Source of the DNA: a virus
Taxonomy: Duplodnaviria; Heunggongvirae; Uroviricota; Caudoviricetes
Reading direction: 5' to 3' (one strand)
Length of the DNA: 43,127 bases
Virus record (IMG/VR): IMGVR_UViG_2562617113_000019
Made by a program: the position numbers. Below, piece by piece: positions 12,001 through 21,000 of this stretch; the stretch's first letter is position 1, and every line of letters starts with the position of its first letter.

Positions 12001-15000
12001 GAGCCGAAAGTTGTATCGGTAGCGAAAACATCTGGTAAAGCCTTTCCTCAGCCAGCCGGTGTTGCGTTACCAGTACAGGAAGCGGCAACACAGGAAGAAA
12101 TTAAAACAGATACTGTGGGGGACATTGTGCAGTCACTACCATCGTTCACTGAAACGCGAGCCAATGACCTGATTTTACCATCGCTGCAAATGGCAAACCG
12201 CGAACTGCGCCGGGCGAAAAGTCATGTCCAGAAGTGGGAGCGAGTCTGCGCCGCTCTGCGTGAGCTGAACAAGCACCAGGATATTGTCCGACAGATTGTC
12301 GATTCCTCCAGTCGTATTGTGTCGGAAAAGTGATTCCTGGGGAGGGCTTATGGCAAAAGTATTTACACAGGAAGAGCGAGGAAAAAATTAAAGGGCAGAT
12401 TGTTGATCTCGTACGCCAGAGCGGGCGAGAGACGTTACGACAACTGGAAGCTAAAATGGGGGCAACCAGATATCTGATAAGTATTCTCGCCAAAGAGCTG
12501 GTTTCGAGTGGTGAAGTATACAACTCTGGCTATGGGTTATTCCCGTCAGAACAGGCTCGTAAGGACTGGCAAAACGCCCGCAAAAAACTATCGAGGGCAA
12601 AGTCGAAGGAACCGGCTATGGTTGATCCTGACCTTATCTGGTCATTACCAGACGGAGAAATACGCCGCTACGACAGGTGTCAGAACATAATTTGTCGCGA
12701 GTGCCGGAAGAGTGAAGTTATGCAGCGTGTATTAGCATTTTATCAGGGAAATGTTCGGTATTTATTGAAGTGACGAGATTAAAGACCATTAATTCATATG
12801 TGAATTGACATTTTCATGGCACAGGATATAGCTAGCGTGGTTGTCTGTTTTGTACCATAAGCGGAAGTAGCTAACAACAGTTTGTGTGGAGCAACTGGGA
12901 GCAGGTCGGAACCACCGTGAACGAAAAGTAGAAAATCAACATATAGTAAAGCTTGAAAAATTAGTTCAACTATTATTATAGTGCTTTCGATGTTGTTAAA
13001 TGCGATCTGAAATCACTAAGAAAACTCGCTATAACGGCGTGCAAAGATTACTTAACTGAAATATTGATCTGTATATTTAAACGGAGTTAGTATGTCAGAC
13101 ACACAGAAAAACATTGATTTAATAAAAGATATTAATGAAATAGCCGAGAAAGGCATACAGGCTTTTGAATTGTCATATAGTGAATCTGGGCACCCAAATC
13201 TTCACGAGCCACTTTTGAGATGGTGCGATTTTATTTTACGATATATACCCCCAGTGAAACGTGATGTTTTTAAATCGGATCGATTCACTAAAAACATTCC
13301 AGATGATGCAAAAGCGGGATTGCAAAGAATAGAGGGATTATTTACTTCAGGTGGCGATGTCAATCCTTACCAGAGTAAAACATTGACATTATTGAATGAC
13401 ACAAGCGGTAAAAAAGCTGCGCAAAGAACGGATAACCTTTGGGCTGATTGGGGCATTCACCATCTTCACCTGTCATTAAACCCAGTTGGTTCAGGTGAAA
13501 AATACTCAGACCGCTCAGAATGGGTGTTATTCCTGAAGGTGTATGCTAATGCTGTTTTATTTATTGATATAAAAAGCCATGATAAAGACATCGAACCCAA
13601 CCTTTTTTCTCAAAAAGACTTGATTGAAACATTTATACGCAACTGGCCAGATGAGGCAGGAGTGTATGAGATGAAAGGTGTTTCAAAGCTGGCAATTAAC
13701 CAACCAATTACCGATGCAGACATCGCAAAATTGAGAAAGAATGGAATAAATCTCCCCTTTGAGGCAAACGGGAAGGTTTATGCACCATTAGGTATGGGAA
13801 TGACGACTGCTGTAACCTCTATGAGAGTTTCAATTTATAGAGATAAAATATGTAATTGGGCTAAACAAATAGAAGGCATATTCATGGATGAAGATGGCCC
13901 ATTCCTGAAGGAAGTGAAATCTCAGAATGTACAAAACCCTAAATTCGAATTGTATATGTATGATGGTGATATGTTCGGCATTACTGAGAAAAATATTGAT
14001 AAAGGCTGGATATTCACTAGAGGTAAATCCGACAACGTTTTCAGCTGTTTATTTGACTCATTGATGCCTGTGTGGGCCAGTCCTGTTGTATTGCAGTACT
14101 GGAAAAAGAACCCATAACAAAACGGTTTGACGAACCGAGACCCTCATGCCACCGTTCATATGGCGCGACGAATAATGATAAGTATGCCGCGCCATACGTT
14201 CAAATAAACATACAAGCATCAGTATAAACGTGCAGGCATACCGGTGCTTATATGATTAGACACATCATGGGGTTGACCTGCTCCCTGTTAATTATCACAG
14301 AACGCTTTTAGCAATGTCTGCTCATCGCTCACAGCGGACCTTCAACTCTGGTAACTTGTCCGCTTCGTGCCAAGAGCGGACATCAGGTACATCTTTTCTG
14401 GTCATACCTAGCAGTAGTCTAGCGTCAATTCGCATAAATAAGATACCGTTAGAAATACAAAGATCTGTTAATATGCAAATGAAGTAATAAATGGTGAAGC
14501 CCCAACTTACAGAGAGGAGCATCGCACCGTGAAGCTGTACATAATTGGAAACGGATTTGATTTACACCATGGTCTTGATACCAGCTATTTTTCTTTTGCC
14601 TATTTTCTGCGATCGCGCCAGAGGGATTCGTACAACAACTTAGTTGAGTTTGTCGGTTTCACAGACCTACCTGAAAATCTTGATGAACTGAATAAGGATG
14701 AACATCCTCTGTGGTCTGAATTTGAAAGTAATCTGGCATGGTTAAATTCTCAGGCCGTACTGGATGCATTTACCGATTCTCTCCCAAATCTGGGTGACCC
14801 AGATTTTCGTGATAGATACTGGCATGCTTTTGATATTGAAATGCAGCGAATCCTTGAAAATTTAACTGATGATCTTTTCACCCAGTTTACGTCGTTCATT
14901 TCCCAAGTTAAATATCCAGAGCTTACCTCTGATAAAACACTGCAACTATACAGTAACGGCATATTTATAAATTTCAATTACACCAGAACTATTGAGTACT

Positions 15001-18000: not shown

Positions 18001-21000
18001 TTAGCAGAATATCATTCCCAATGATCGGATTAAACCCAATCAATGTCTCAATGAATCTATCATAATTCGTTGTAATAACTGAGCCTATATTTCGACTTGC
18101 TTTTGCAAATAACTCCATTTCTGTTGCATACTTATCACCATCATTTATTTGATGTAGGTCTACAAGTTCTGATATAAATATTTTCATGCGACTGGCAGAG
18201 TAGTTTCCTGAAGCTGCATACTCGTAGTATTTGTCATTTATTCTTTTAAACTTACCGTTCCTATCAGCTTCTAATAATCTATTGAACTCTGTTTCAATTT
18301 CGCTAGCTACCTTTGGTAGATCAATTTCACCTAAAGAATTAGCGTTCCTGCCTGCGGCGTCAAAATAAAAGTCATGACTCCCTTTCATTTCGTAAACAAT
18401 CTTTTTTAGAAGTTCTGACCATGAGTAAGTGCCTACCAGATATCTCCGGCTAAACCCTGCACCAACAAACACTACTGGATGGTTTACGTAAGACTCCATG
18501 AATTTACTAAGATTCATTTATCCTTCTCCATAACAGGAATATTTATAGCTGATAAAGCATACAGCATCTTCGACGAAGATGCCTTCAATTTTGTTCACTC
18601 ATCATCCTATTCTACCTGTTTCATCACACAACAAGTCCAGAACAGCATTATGTATGCCATTGGGAGGGCATATGTATTAAATTAAGTTACGGTCGCAATG
18701 TCTTACATTCATCAAAAGTGAGGTAATATATATAATTTAGCAAAACTAACATTGTCACCACTGCCAGTTAGGGTGATGGGAATAAACAAGGCCTACAGGG
18801 ACTCTCAGCAACTGAACCCTCAGGTCGTTGATAATAATCCTCTCAGTTGATTATTTTCCCTCAGATCACTGAGAAATACAGGCTATTTCCGCTTTTCGCT
18901 CAAAGCGGACTAAAATGTTGGCTTGTGTCTGACTTAGCGCATTTTAGGAAGTGCTGGTGGTGACGGTTTGTTGTGTTGCACAGAAAAAATAGAATAAGTA
19001 CACCAAATAGTTTTATTGAGTCACCAGTGAGACATCCACATATTTATCAGCATATGCGAGTGTCAAATGCAGGAGGTTAACGTGCTGGTTGCGAAATGTG
19101 CACTGGCTATTGCGTTTGTGATGGCAATCTATGGTCTTGCTATTGTTCTTATGGATCACCTTTCTGATTGATTTCATATTGGCGAGGTAACGGGAGTTAA
19201 GTAGAATAGCTGCGGGTGCTTGAGGCTGTCTGCCTCGGGCATGAACACCAAAGGCAGATAGAGAAAAGCCCCAGTTAACATTACGCGTCCGGCAAGACGC
19301 TTAACATTAATCTGAGGCCACATCTATGCTTTGCATACGTAGATTAGCCTCTTACCGACCAAAAGGTCAAGGAGAAGCAGGCTATGAAGCAGCAAAAGGC
19401 GATGTTAATCGCCCTGATCGTCATCTGTTTAACCGTCGTTGTGACGGCACTGGTAACGAGGAAAGACCTCTGCGAGGTACGAATCCGAACCGGCCAGACG
19501 GAGGTCGCTGTCTTCACAGCTTACGAACCTGAGGAGTAAGAGACCCGGCGGGGGAGAAATCCCCCGCCACCTCTGATGTGTCAGGCATCCTCAACGCACC
19601 CGTACTTACCCGCTTCGGCGGGTTTTTTGTTGTGGTGGAGAAATTAGCTTTTTGTGTACTCTTTTAGCAGTAAGTCTTGAGGGACTGATTGTTGTAAATA
19701 GAATCGTGTTTGCTTAGTTAGCGCGCAGGGAGAAGAGGGATGGACCCTTCAGGGGAACGCTATTAATCTGGAAAATTCTATTTATGGACTTCAAGAAGTT
19801 GCGCAAAATTATTAATAAAGATGGCCTCTATGCAGTGCGCGTTGAAAATGGGGAAATTATTAGTTGTTACTGCATTCATTGCTCACGGGCTTTGCAACAG
19901 CCTAGTGGGGCTATGTTAATATATCTCTTGAATGGGCATGTGACGGACGGATTTATGTTGCGTGAAGATGAATTTGTCACATCATTACGGACATTAAAAG
20001 AAATTGGATTAAAAGCTGGCTTTTCTGCTTTTGAAGACGATTGAACTCATCTATAATTCAGCGCAGGGTTGACCCCCTGCTGAGTAACACCGTGCCACCG
20101 GAGAAAGCCGATGGCACATATACAACTGATCAAACATACCTCTTCTGGATTACTGCTCCCGGCAACATCGGAGAGTTGCGAATTCTTGCATCAAATAAAA
20201 ATAGGTGAGTGGATACACGCTGATTTTAAGCGCGTTCGTAACTACGCATTTCACAAGCGTTTTTTCAAACTCCTGCAACTCGGATTCGATTACTGGACTC
20301 CTGTCGGTGGGGCGATCACCTCTCGTGAACGAAAACTTGTGTCCGGTTTCGTTGATTATCTGTGTGACTCGGTCGGTCGGGAACATACGCCAGCCCTGAG
20401 TGATGCCGCAGAACAATATCTGAATACCATTGCGATACGCAGAACCTGCGATACGGCATTGCTAAAGTCATTTGATGCTTTCCGTGAATGGGTAACTATT
20501 GAGGCCGGATTTTACACCGAGCATTTTTATCCGGACGGTAGCCGTGGACGCAGGGCAAGATCTATCGCGTTTGCAAATATGGACGATACCGAGTTTCAGC
20601 AGGTTTATAAATCCGTACTGAATGTGCTTTGGAACTGGATCCTGTTCCGTAAATTTTCCTCACCGGAACAAGTCGAAAATGTTGCTGCGCAGCTGCTGGA
20701 GTTTGCGTAATGGTGGATTTGCGTAAAGCTGCTAAAGGCCATATGTGTACAGTCAGAATCCCCGGTTACTGCAATCACAATCCTGAAACATCTGTGCTGG
20801 CGCACTACAGGCTAGCGGGGACGTGTGGAATGGCGATAAAACCACACGATATGCAGGCAGCGATTGCCTGTAACTCATGTCACGATCTAATCGATGGGCG
20901 GGTAAAAACCAGCGATTACACCAAAGAAGAATTGCACCTGATGCATGCAGAAGGTGTTTTTCGCACGCAAGAAATCTGGAGAAATGAGGGATATTTATGA

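What the first reader, a model, noticed from the sequence alone, without database searches (positions are those of the whole stretch)
12774..18992. Four-cassette accessory island, probably an anti-phage defence hotspot, between the replication module and hok
The conserved early region ends at 12773 and resumes with hok/nin genes at about 19.0 kb. In between are four unrelated, separately spaced genes:
- an unknown 341-aa protein (13092-14117);
- an AbiH-like protein (14529-15506);
- an unknown protein with an N-terminal glycine-zipper hydrophobic segment (15795-16619);
- an inverted, markedly AT-rich SIR2-like gene (17009-18517).

Each cassette is followed on the plus strand by a copy of the same structured repeat. 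Two of the four carry recognisable abortive-infection or NADase signatures, so by association the two unknown genes are candidate novel immunity functions. I cannot match the set to any complete named multi-gene system.
Basis: partly seen in the sequence, partly recalled or inferred. Interest (0 to 1): 0.8.

Follow-up and report, generated by a model that had tools for sequence, protein, structure and literature searches.

The report
Swappable defence-gene cassettes in a prophage
A Rac-type E. coli prophage carries four separate single-gene anti-phage cassettes, each bounded by short conserved DNA sites that also bound different cargo genes in P2 phages, other lambdoid phages, genomic islands and many other enterobacteria, which points to a shared, still unidentified cassette-swapping mechanism.

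Summary
Window 12774-18992 contains four unrelated, AT-rich genes between conserved prophage flanks (DUF977/lygF and hokD), and a repeat follows each gene.

- **Genes.** Three of the four match defence families. The 341-aa "unknown" is PD-T4-7, an experimentally validated abortive-infection gene. The others are AbiH and a SIR2 NADase-type protein (PADLOC candidate PDC-S25). The fourth belongs to an uncharacterised family with a confident but unmatched fold.
- **Repeat.** It consists of two related 23-24 bp sites: A (GTCCGCTnnTCGCTCAnAGCGGAC) and B (GTCCGCTnnGTGCCAnnAGCGGAC, roughly an inverted A). The layout is B | gene | A-B | gene | A-B | gene | A-B | gene | A.
- **Same frame elsewhere.** B-cargo-A also surrounds fun(Z) in phage P2, where inverted repeats were reported in 2004. 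It recurs in other phages, islands and many Enterobacterales genomes with very diverse cargo.
- **Exchange points.** Two of the window's cassettes occur elsewhere, and their homology ends at the sites. Across many loci, ancestry switches inside the invariant site centres.
- **Mechanism.** This favours site-specific cassette exchange by an unknown recombinase acting in trans. That step is inferred, not shown.

The island is a new member or variant of a known kind. The wide reach of the sites is the interesting part.

The parts
12330..12773 (+). Left conserved flank: DUF977/lygF-like gene of the Rac-type early-right operon
   Evidence: ORF. RefSeq names it a DUF977 family protein. It is 85-86% identical in phages HannyBb, Tritos, PhiR42_1 and 689R5.
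12816..12842 (+). Left leader of the cassette slot. It contains TGGCACAGG, an inverted copy of the B centre.
   Evidence: The same leader (ATGGCACAGrGTArA, then about 20 nt, then B) precedes B in P2, in P2 prophage L002 and in lygF-flank loci. It is absent from the empty P2-type locus of phage P37.
12843..12865 (+). Site B1 (GTCTGTTTTGTACCATAAGCGGA; centre GTACCA), the left boundary of cassette 1
   Evidence: Found. Homology with phage Tritos runs through it to 12876.
12866..12912 (+). Right arm of the larger imperfect palindrome (GTAGCTAACAACAG...GGGAGCAGGTC)
   Evidence: Sequence. The same arm (GTTGCTAAyA...GGGGAGCAGGTCA) follows B in many loci.
13092..14117 (+). Cassette 1 gene: PD-T4-7 homologue (341 aa)
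   Evidence: PADLOC PDLC04066, E 6.4e-141, residues 1-340 against profile positions 1-336 of 337. No hit in Pfam, NCBIfam, PHROGs or PDB sequences. PD-T4-7 is described as a TA-like abortive-infection defence in PMC9519451. A promoter-like site lies at 12953-12982.
14273..14315 (+). Left arm of the larger palindrome (TTGACCTGCTCCC...GCTTTTAGCAATG)
   Evidence: Sequence. The same arm (TGACCTGCTCCCCGTTGATTCACACAGAAyGCTGTTAGCAATG) precedes A in many viral and genomic loci.
14316..14381 (+). Junction 1: site A1 (14316-14339), an 18-nt linker, and site B2 (14358-14381)
14529..15506 (+). Cassette 2 gene: AbiH family (325 aa)
   Evidence: Pfam PF14253 AbiH, E 3.3e-58, covering profile positions 1-259 of 260. 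PADLOC AbiH 1.2e-23. PHROG 19951 4e-45.
15560..15624 (+). Junction 2: site A2 (15560-15583), a linker, and a degenerate B (about 15602-15624, GTCCCCTTTGTACCAAAATAGAT)
   Evidence: The same junction travels with cassette 3 in island L001.
15795..16619 (+). Cassette 3 gene: uncharacterised 274-aa protein with an N-terminal glycine-zipper hydrophobic helical hairpin, a helical body and a small winged-helix-like end
16709..16773 (+). Junction 3: site A3 (16709-16732), a linker, and site B3 (16751-16773)
   Evidence: Homology of cassette 3 with L001 ends at 16724, directly after TCGCTCA. Homology of the SIR2 cassette with L002 starts at 16706.
17009..18517 (-). Cassette 4 gene: SIR2-domain protein (502 aa), PADLOC candidate PDC-S25
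   Evidence: Pfam SIR2_2 6e-24. PADLOC PDC-S25 6.7e-143, full length. ThsA 6LHX E 7e-9, with the GAGxS, TTNYD and HG motifs aligned. GC about 0.31.
18887..18910 (+). Site A4, the right boundary of the array and the start of the conserved hok-side flank
   Evidence: Homology with Tritos starts at 18885. The same right half plus flank is joined to many different left sequences in viral contigs.
18953..18960 (+). Chi sequence GCTGGTGG in the conserved hok-side flank
   Evidence: Read. It is present in the same flank in many viral loci (GAAGTGCTGGTGGTGAC). Any role in exchange is inferred only.
19214..19539 (+). Right conserved flank: sok RNA (19214-19389) and hokD (19384-19539)
   Evidence: Rfam sok, 105 bits, E 9.6e-24. 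RefSeq annotates hokD.

Best explanation
**What it is.** The region is a defence-gene hotspot of a Rac-type prophage inserted at ttcA in E. coli NADC1036. It holds a tandem array of four independent single-gene cassettes, each presumably acting alone.
- PD-T4-7: abortive infection, TA-like.
- AbiH: abortive infection.
- An uncharacterised membrane-anchored protein: a candidate effector, by inference only.
- A SIR2 protein: NAD+ depletion on infection, by analogy with ThsA and other SIR2 defences.

**How it is built.** The array sits on a reusable slot defined by two related 23-24 bp sites.
- B (GTCCGCTnnGTGCCAnnAGCGGAC) lies on the left of each cargo. A (GTCCGCTnnTCGCTCAnAGCGGAC) lies on the right.
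- The two sites share 7-9 bp inverted arms, are inverted relative to each other, and differ at two fixed positions of the centre.

**How it most likely works.** Cargo is exchanged between phages, islands and chromosomes by crossovers inside the invariant centres, A with A and B with B. This can happen in two ways.
- Two-site cassette exchange between two occupied slots.
- Excision and integration of circles carrying A-linker-B plus cargo, which would build arrays.

The different centres would keep A from recombining with B, so a cassette is neither inverted nor deleted on its own. The enzyme is probably a tyrosine-type recombinase supplied in trans.

**Shown.** The gene family assignments, the site layout, the recurrence of the sites in other elements, and the breakpoints at the site centres.

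**Inferred.** That the exchange is enzymatic and site-specific, which enzyme class does it, and the defence phenotype of each gene in this strain.
For: **Gene identities.**. PD-T4-7 is validated in PMC9519451.

**Hotspot.**
- The flanks are conserved in 81 phage records while the middle varies.
- In 22 loci with both flanks, the interval is 1.5-6.8 kb. Only the window has four A sites.
- The full island occurs in 1 of 5426 complete E. coli genomes.

**Independent cassettes.**
- The SIR2 cassette (16706-18911) is 95.7% identical inside the P2 G/FI hotspot.
- Cassette 3 (15561-16724) is 93% identical in a genomic island that carries IS66, YagK/YfjJ and cdiA genes.
- Both sets of homology ends fall at A sites.

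**Same frame elsewhere.** B-cargo-A surrounds P2 fun(Z), two cassettes in prophage L002 and one in phage Tritos.

**Order of sites.** B followed by A accounts for 73 of 98 consecutive site pairs in viral loci and 97 of 124 in genomic loci.

**Cargo diversity.** 72 viral cassettes fall into 59 clusters. 97 genomic cassettes fall into 89 clusters.

**Breakpoints.**
- A sites, 172 pairs with the same right flank but a different left flank: the variable nn left of TCGCTCA match at 0.47 and 0.42, while the n to its right matches at 0.98.
- A sites, 15 reciprocal pairs: 0.87 on the left against 0.40 on the right.
- B sites, 47 pairs: 0.96 left of GTGCCA against 0.53 and 0.38 on the right.

**Site character.**
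- The arms are conserved as sequence, with no significant covariation, as expected for protein-binding half-sites.
- The geometry is that of a classical recombinase core site: short inverted arms around an asymmetric invariant centre of about 7 bp.

**Prior report.** The inverted repeats flanking fun were linked to site-specific exchange by Nilsson et al. 2004, as cited in PMC8987985.
Against: **No enzyme found.**
- No recombinase gene recurs within 8 kb of the sites in 120 genomic loci.
- The only integrase in the window is IntR, at the prophage end.

**No direct sign of recombination.** No circular intermediate or empty hybrid site was seen. The one empty P2-type locus found (phage P37) lacks A, B and their leader and trailer altogether.

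**Limits of the breakpoint test.**
- The pairs are not independent events. Many of them share the hok flank.
- The loci were selected with a pattern that fixes most of site A.

**Features that also fit a REP-like intergenic element.** The sites lie about 2:1 at the 3' ends of neighbouring genes.

**Cargo can move by other routes.** The cassette 3 gene occurs in Dickeya and Aeromonas without any A or B site.

**Untested phenotypes.** The defence phenotypes of AbiH, PDC-S25 and cassette 3 in E. coli were not tested. PDC-S25 is only a computational candidate.
Confidence: 0.6

Rival explanations
1. The repeats are portable homology. Their primary role is something else, for example REP-like 3'-end hairpins or insulators between a moron and the phage operon. 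Cassettes are swapped by general or phage-encoded homologous recombination (RecA/RecBCD, RecET, Red) that uses the conserved 23-70 bp repeats.
For: - The prophage encodes RecE and RecT.
- A Chi site lies just right of A4, in the orientation that would direct RecBCD-stimulated exchange leftwards into the array (the orientation rule is from established knowledge).
- The sites are intergenic and biased to gene 3' ends.
- No recombinase is encoded nearby.
- Exchange of the sopE cassette between P2-like and lambdoid phages is attributed to homologous recombination in the literature (PMC7380047).
Against: - Ancestry switches inside the 6-7 nt centre and almost never in the equally conserved arms.
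- Uninterrupted identity blocks are only 6-7 nt, far below what RecA needs and short even for annealing proteins.
- The sites have no T tract and are not picked up as terminators.
- Two site types with different fixed centres are not expected for plain homology.
Confidence: 0.22
2. The sites are hairpin substrates of a single-strand HUH or Y1 enzyme of the REP/RAYT, REPIN or IS200/IS605-PATE type. The A-linker-B doublet would be the mobile or nicked unit, and cargo would be carried between hairpins.
For: - Each site is a GC-rich palindrome with a conserved asymmetric loop.
- A and B are inverted copies that can fold together into one long imperfect hairpin (143-nt fold, z -2.3).
- The doublets are intergenic and spread over many Enterobacterales, plus Idiomarina and a Pseudomonas plasmid.
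Against: - Covariation in the arms is not significant: score 0.122 against 0.112, with 76 of 500 shuffles as high.
- Copy number in E. coli is low: median 1 and maximum 4 places per genome. REP families are known to have hundreds (from established knowledge).
- No transposase or RAYT-like family recurs nearby.
- Folding z-scores are modest.
- IS200/IS605 enzymes cut beside the hairpins, not in the loops (established knowledge).
Confidence: 0.1
3. The island is an ordinary mosaic built by illegitimate recombination. The repeats are inherited relics with no present role in mobility.
For: - No direct evidence of ongoing recombination.
- The empty P2-type locus lacks any site.
- Some copies are degenerate, namely B at 12843 and at about 15602.
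Against: - The 21 specified bases of A are perfectly conserved in more than 120 loci from many genera.
- The B-cargo-A order dominates.
- Breakpoints coincide with the centres.
- The same cassette sits in P2 and Rac contexts with homology ending at the sites.
Confidence: 0.05

Closest known systems
P2 Z/fun locus with flanking inverted repeats (Nilsson, Karlsson and Haggard-Ljungquist 2004, known here only through PMC8987985); the P2 "second hotspot" or "moron position 2" (PMC9519451, PMC3573123)
   Same: - The identical frame. In the P2 reference genome, B (GTCCACTCTGTGCCAAAAGCGGA) lies left of fun(Z) and A (TCCGCTTCTCGCTCAAAGGAAAC) lies right of it.
- The window's SIR2 cassette sits in this very P2 locus in another strain.
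- Cargo there is defence-type as well.
   Different: - Here the slot lies in a lambdoid Rac-type prophage, between the replication module and hokD.
- It holds a four-cassette tandem array joined by A-linker-B junctions.
- The original paper could not be read, so I could not confirm that its repeats are exactly A and B.
P2/P4 defence hotspots (Rousset et al. 2022, PMC9122126)
   Same: - Prophage loci with fixed flanks and rapidly changing single- or few-gene defence systems.
- Overlapping cargo families: SIR2, DRT, Pycsar, TIR, PARIS-type ATPases.
   Different: - Those hotspots lie next to cos. That paper calls the exchange mechanism open and speculates on cos ends.
- It does not mention bounding repeats. 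Here discrete sites mark the exchange points.
Integron gene cassettes (attC / IntI)
   Same: - Small, mostly promoter-poor to single-gene cassettes with very diverse cargo, including defence genes.
- A structured imperfect-palindrome junction between cassettes.
- Tandem arrays.
- Crossovers at a fixed short conserved motif.
   Different: - No intI gene and no attI.
- The sites lack the RYYYAAC...GTTRRRY boxes.
- A and B are conserved in sequence rather than only in structure.
- Cargo orientation is not fixed: 46 + against 26 -.
Acinetobacter pdif modules (XerC/XerD sites flanking discrete modules; recalled from memory, not checked in the library)
   Same: - Modules bounded by recombination sites in alternating, mutually inverted orientation.
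- The modules move between replicons.
- The recombinase is not encoded in the module.
   Different: - A and B do not resemble dif, cer or pdif arm sequences (inspection against the consensus recalled from memory).
- The host range is Enterobacterales.
- The carriers are mostly prophages and chromosomes.
R64 shufflon sfx sites (Rci tyrosine recombinase)
   Same: The B centre GTGCCA(A/G) equals the 7-bp sfx core GTGCCAA (PMC4176322). Both have an asymmetric core that sets orientation.
   Different: - The conserved sfx right arm TCCGGTACGTGG is not matched.
- The sfx left arms are not conserved, whereas both arms of A and B are.
- Rci only inverts.
- The shared hexamer may be coincidence.

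Membership tests
PD-T4-7 (PADLOC / Vassallo et al. 2022) | Full-length match to the family profile | tested here: met
   PDLC04066, E 6.4e-141, residues 1-340 against profile positions 1-336 of 337.
PD-T4-7 (PADLOC / Vassallo et al. 2022) | Abortive-infection protection against T4-type phages | not testable with these tools
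   The phenotype is reported for the founding member only (PMC9519451).
AbiH (Pfam PF14253) | Match above the Pfam gathering score over the whole domain | tested here: met
   198.2 bits against a cut-off of 30.9, covering profile positions 1-259 of 260.
SIR2-type defence NADase (ThsA-like SIR2 domain) | SIR2_2 domain with the GAGxS, TTNYD (catalytic Asn) and HG (catalytic His) motifs | tested here: met
   Pfam SIR2_2 6e-24. The alignment to ThsA 6LHX shows GAGFS, TTNYD and IHG aligned with the ThsA motifs. The catalytic roles come from established knowledge of ThsA.
Thoeris (ThsA + ThsB) | A SLOG/STALD sensor domain in ThsA and an adjacent TIR gene (thsB) | tested here: not met
   Matches to ThsA models cover only the SIR2 part, residues about 140-305. 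No TIR gene lies between the flanking sites. The gene is filed as the single-gene candidate PDC-S25 instead.
PDC-S25 (PADLOC candidate) | Full-length match to the candidate profile | tested here: met
   PDLC04968, E 6.7e-143, residues 2-502 against profile positions 9-515 of 517. I know of no experimental validation.
P2 fun-type inverted-repeat cassette slot | Cargo bounded by B on the left and A on the right, the two being mutually inverted copies | tested here: met
   The window layout is identical to that of the P2 reference fun(Z).
P2 fun-type inverted-repeat cassette slot | Homology between different carriers ends at the repeats | tested here: met
   Pairwise ends at 15561/16724 and 16706/18911. 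Population-level switch inside the centres.
Integron | An intI integrase with attI next to the array | tested here: not met
   No integrase lies in or beside the island. The only one is intR, about 11 kb upstream at the prophage end.
Integron | attC sites with RYYYAAC / GTTRRRY boxes, conserved in structure rather than sequence | tested here: not met
   A and B have different, strongly sequence-conserved arms. Covariation is not significant.
REP / BIME / REPIN | Tens to hundreds of copies per genome | tested here: not met
   In E. coli, 1474 of 5426 genomes have any copy; the median is 1 and the maximum 4 places. Copy number in other genera was not measured.
REP / BIME / REPIN | A cognate RAYT (TnpA-REP) gene flanked by the repeats | not tested
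   No recurrent family other than common regulators and enzymes was seen within 8 kb. Whole genomes were not examined.
Intrinsic terminator | A GC-rich hairpin followed by a T tract | tested here: not met
   None of the A or B sites is among the 9 terminator-like hits. No T run follows them.
Rci sfx site | The 7-bp core GTGCCAA plus the conserved right arm TCCGGTACGTGG | tested here: not met
   The core is shared by B, but the right arm is AGCGGAC(A/G)TT.

The most novel reading that the evidence does not exclude
A and B are the sites of an Enterobacterales-wide, integrase-less gene-cassette exchange system, with the enzyme acting in trans.
- Two heterospecific, mutually inverted recombination sites frame a slot.
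- Any cargo carried between a B and an A can be swapped into any such slot in P2-like phages, lambdoid phages, genomic islands, plasmids or chromosomes.
- This would be a functional counterpart of integrons and pdif modules.
- It would explain the fast turnover of defence genes at several phage hotspots.
Probability: 0.4. Interest if true: 0.85.

Novelty: new variant of a known kind. Interest (0 to 1): 0.62.

Why it matters
**An open question becomes testable.** Phage and prophage hotspots are major reservoirs of anti-phage systems, but how their content turns over so fast is openly unresolved (PMC9122126). This window gives a concrete handle: two short sites with invariant centres, at which ancestry switches.

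**The sites connect very different carriers.** They are shared by a Rac-type prophage, P2 phages, a genomic island and chromosomes and plasmids of many enterobacterial genera.

**If a recombinase uses these sites, three things follow.**
- Defence genes would be seen to travel between unrelated mobile elements as standard parts.
- Scanning for B...A frames would be a cheap way to find new cargo, including new defence genes such as the uncharacterised cassette 3 family.
- The site pair could serve as a natural cassette-exchange tool.

**The island on its own is ordinary.** It is one more prophage defence hotspot whose genes mostly belong to catalogued families.

Tried and rejected
- **Known RNA families.** Rfam found nothing on the repeats, only sok and a sub-threshold isrK-like hit outside the island.
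- **RNA or ssDNA structure as the conserved feature.** The covariation test on 73 B sites chosen by their centre alone was not significant. Pairing was 84.0% against 82.4% in shuffles, and the covariation score was reached by 76 of 500 shuffles. Folding z-scores are modest.
- **Terminators.** No T tracts and no scan hits at the sites.
- **High-copy MITE or REP.** Copy number in E. coli is too low.
- **P2 gpA (HUH) nick site.** GCGCC/TCGGAG is unrelated to TCGCTCA.
- **A recombinase encoded nearby.** ORF clustering in 120 genomic loci gave only LysR, SDR, ADH and LysE-type families.
- **An empty site with a hybrid A/B.** The only empty P2-type locus found (phage P37) lacks the whole slot.
- **The sopE cassette as the same system.** SopEPhi has no A or B site at up to 5 mismatches. 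It has only a doubtful remnant, GTCCTTTTCGCTCAGGAGG.
- **Cassette 3 function.** No hit in Pfam, NCBIfam or PHROGs and no meaningful PDB sequence match, only chance-level hits to designed helical proteins. Fold searches gave only weak partial winged-helix or helical-repeat matches. Genomic context is mixed: a lone gene beside parC in Aeromonas, and next to a YobI-type NTPase and an IS110 in Dickeya.
- **Literature.** The Nilsson 2004 and Odegrip 2006 papers are not held. Several full-text searches found no paper describing these sites outside P2.

Full report
**1. The observation.**

The four ORFs are present exactly as described: 13092-14117 (+), 14529-15506 (+), 15795-16619 (+) and 17009-18517 (-). 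RefSeq annotates the same four genes. The window is part of a Rac-type prophage inserted next to ttcA in E. coli NADC1036. That prophage carries intR, xisR, ralR, recT, recE, kilR, a frameshifted sieB, a ydaT-like gene and O/P-type replication genes, followed by the island and then hokD.

GC content drops from 0.50-0.59 in the replication genes to 0.30-0.45 in the island. The SIR2 gene is at about 0.31.

The repeat is real. The core pattern TCCGCNNNTCGCTCANNNNGGAC occurs four times, all on the + strand, once after each gene. Chance would give 0.04 copies.

**2. The genes.**

- **Gene 1** is not unknown. It matches the PADLOC PD-T4-7 profile end to end (E 6e-141). PD-T4-7 was recovered in a functional selection and described as a TA-like abortive-infection defence (PMC9519451). 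It has no Pfam, NCBIfam, PHROG or PDB relative.
- **Gene 2** is a full-length AbiH (Pfam 3e-58).
- **Gene 4** has a SIR2_2 domain and matches the PADLOC single-gene candidate PDC-S25 end to end (E 7e-143). Its SIR2 part aligns with ThsA (6LHX, E 7e-9), and the GAGxS, TTNYD and HG motifs are kept. It has no SLOG domain and no TIR partner, so it is not Thoeris.
- **Gene 3** remains unassigned.
  - It has no family hit apart from a weak LeoBC match.
  - It has 146 homologues of uniform length, about 265 aa, from many phyla. All are labelled hypothetical.
  - AlphaFold2 gives a confident model (pLDDT 87.8, pTM 0.86): an N-terminal glycine-rich helical hairpin, a helical body and a small winged-helix-like end.
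  - The model has no significant structural neighbour.
  - Its contexts elsewhere are mixed. In Aeromonas it is a lone gene beside parC. In Dickeya it lies next to a 1318-aa YobI-type NTPase and an IS110.
  - A defence role is therefore only an inference from its company here.

**3. The repeat is two related sites.**

Reading the intergenic regions and scanning with relaxed patterns shows two site types.
- A = (G)TCCGCTnnTCGCTCAnAGCGGAC.
- B = GTCCGCTnnGTGCCAnnAGCGGA(C).

B is close to an inverted A. It has the same arms, and its centre differs at two fixed positions (TCGCTC in A against TGGCAC in the reverse complement of B).

The layout in the window is as follows.
- B1 at 12843
- PD-T4-7
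- A1 at 14317 and B2 at 14358
- AbiH
- A2 at 15561 and a degenerate B at about 15602
- gene 3
- A3 at 16710 and B3 at 16751
- SIR2 (on the minus strand)
- A4 at 18888
- the hok flank

Many copies elsewhere extend into a larger imperfect palindrome: TGACCTGCTCCCC...GCTGTTAGCAA-A-linker-B-GTTGCTAAC...GGGGAGCAGGTCA. Its left arm is present at 14273-14315 and its right arm at 12866-12912.

**4. The same frame in other elements.**

Only the source strain, among 5426 complete E. coli genomes, has the whole island. Two cassettes recur alone.
- The SIR2 cassette (16706-18911) is 95.7% identical inside a P2 prophage, between the tail-fibre assembly gene and the tail-sheath gene.
- Cassette 3 (15561-16724) is 93% identical in a genomic island that carries IS66, YagK/YfjJ and cdiA genes.

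Both loci contain further A and B sites that delimit other cargo.

In the P2 reference genome, fun(Z) is framed by B on the left and A on the right. Phage Tritos has one B-cargo-A unit between lygF and hokD. Rac-like phages without such cargo have no sites.

[quoted passage not shown] 2004 (PMC8987985). The repeat has therefore been seen before at the P2 locus. I could not obtain the original paper. The two recent hotspot papers describe these loci without mentioning repeats, and one of them calls the mechanism open.

**5. Reach and cargo.**

- **One genome per species.** A stricter 21-base pattern also hit the limit. Hits came from Erwinia, Pantoea, Rahnella, Klebsiella, Citrobacter, Enterobacter, Serratia, Proteus and others, plus Idiomarina and a Pseudomonas plasmid.
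- **Copy number in E. coli.** It is low: 1474 of 5426 genomes have a copy, with a median of 1 and a maximum of 4 places.
- **Order of sites.** B followed by A dominates among consecutive sites, 73 of 98 in viral loci and 97 of 124 in genomic loci, with 0.3-7 kb between them.
- **Cargo diversity.** 72 viral cassettes fall into 59 clusters, and 97 genomic cassettes into 89 clusters.
- **Viral cargo.** It includes PDC-S06, NsnA, PD-T4-2, restriction enzymes, a UG17 reverse transcriptase, ThsB, a Pycsar cyclase, PD-T7-1, Tmn, GmrSD, DarT and HEPN proteins. A few are transporters or regulators.
- **Cargo in other Enterobacterales.** It mixes MFS, LysR, dehydrogenase, AraC, LysE and acetyltransferase genes with AbiTii, Gabija, Septu and PARIS-type genes.

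The frame is therefore a general accessory-gene slot. In E. coli prophages it is mostly filled with defence genes.

In 22 loci that have both the lygF-side and hok-side flanks, nearly all hold a single cassette. The window is the only one with four A sites.

**6. Where exchange happens.**

I used the few variable positions inside the sites as markers.
- **A sites, same right flank but unrelated left flank (172 pairs).** The two bases left of TCGCTCA match at background level (0.47 and 0.42). The base right of it matches at 0.98.
- **A sites, the reciprocal class (15 pairs).** The figures are 0.87 on the left against 0.40 on the right.
- **B sites, same left flank (47 pairs).** The figures are 0.96 left of GTGCCA and 0.53 and 0.38 right of it.

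Ancestry therefore switches inside the invariant centre and almost never in the equally conserved arms. The pairs are not independent events, and the loci were selected with a pattern that fixes most of A. I treat this as strong but not final evidence.

The arms vary little and show no significant covariation. The sites are not terminator-like. Their predicted single-strand folds are only modestly stable.

**7. Mechanism.**

The pattern has four parts.
- Short inverted arms surround an asymmetric invariant centre of about 7 bp.
- Crossovers are confined to that centre.
- Two site types share arms but differ in the centre.
- The order B-cargo-A is fixed.

This is what two heterospecific recombinase sites framing an exchangeable cassette would give. 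Exchange would be A with A and B with B, between two occupied slots. Alternatively, A-linker-B-cargo circles would be excised and integrated, which would account for tandem arrays such as this one.

No recombinase is encoded nearby, so the enzyme would act in trans and remains unknown. The B centre equals the Rci sfx core GTGCCAA, but the arms differ. I regard that as a lead only.

The main rival is homologous recombination using the repeats as portable homology. In its favour are the prophage RecET genes, a conserved Chi site at 18953-18960 and the literature view of the sopE cassette. Against it are the centre-restricted breakpoints and the very short identity blocks.

A hairpin-specific HUH enzyme (REP/RAYT-like) is a weaker rival.

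The one empty P2-type locus found (phage P37) lacks the sites and their leader and trailer. The slot itself is therefore an insertion, and no simple hybrid "empty site" exists.

**8. Verdict.**

The finding is confirmed, and its interpretation as a defence hotspot of independent cassettes is supported. In terms of gene content it is a new member of a known kind. One of the two "novel" genes is already a validated system.

The part that goes beyond the literature I could search is that the P2 fun-type inverted repeats form a two-site frame with three properties.
- It builds multi-cassette arrays in a lambdoid prophage.
- It is shared across unrelated mobile elements and many enterobacterial genera.
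- It marks the exchange points to within a few bases.

This makes the turnover mechanism directly testable.

Noticed in passing
window 18953-18960: A Chi sequence (GCTGGTGG) lies 43 nt right of site A4 on the + strand. It is conserved in the same hok-side flank in many viral contigs (GAAGTGCTGGTGGTGAC). Its orientation would direct RecBCD-stimulated recombination leftwards into the cassette array.
   Followed up: partly
window 19214-19389, 19384-19539 and 19548-19628: A full sok antisense RNA (Rfam 105 bits) overlaps the start of hokD. Just downstream is an isrK-like hairpin-plus-terminator element at 33 bits, below the Rfam gathering score of 50.
   Followed up: no
window about 21928-23179 and 24783-25917: RefSeq annotates two toxin modules in the late region of the same prophage. 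One is a scabin-related ADP-ribosyltransferase with a subtilase-type AB5 binding subunit. The other is an enterotoxin A family protein with an enterotoxin B-type gene (LT-II-like).
   Followed up: no
window 18563-18583: A perfect 8-9 bp GC-containing hairpin with T-rich tails on both strands lies just upstream of the SIR2 start codon. It is a bidirectional terminator-like site and may insulate the inverted cassette.
   Followed up: no
L126 (phage PhiR42_1) 5444-5466 (+) and 6436-6458 (-): In this Qin-like phage, flxA and a ydfV-like gene lie between two B-type sites in opposite orientation, upstream of relBE-hokD. This differs from the usual B...A frame.
   Followed up: no
L250 (Yersinia phage P37) 590-640: This P2-type phage has an empty G/FI locus. 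The stop codon of the tail-fibre assembly gene is joined almost directly to the terminator upstream of the F promoter, with no A, B, leader or trailer.
   Followed up: yes
L130-L249 (genomes of other Enterobacterales): Outside E. coli, many B...A frames carry ordinary accessory genes (MFS transporters, LysR and AraC regulators, Zn-dehydrogenases, LysE, GNATs) rather than defence genes. The sites often sit within about 25-40 nt of a gene's stop codon.
   Followed up: partly
L257 (Dickeya dadantii) 3532-8825: A 92% identical copy of the cassette 3 gene lies beside a 1318-aa YobI-like P-loop NTPase and an IS110 transposase, with no A or B sites. Nucleotide homology to the window covers only about -115 to +30 around the ORF, so the gene travels with its own upstream region.
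   Followed up: partly
L251 (Salmonella phage SopEPhi) about 27780-27810: Next to a DNA-invertase gene fragment at the sopE locus there is a sequence, GTCCTTTTCGCTCAGGAGG, that looks like a decayed A site. No intact A or B is present.
   Followed up: no
window about 7461-7950: The prophage's sieB superinfection-exclusion gene is annotated as frameshifted. One classical exclusion function of this prophage may therefore be lost while the cassette array is intact.
   Followed up: no
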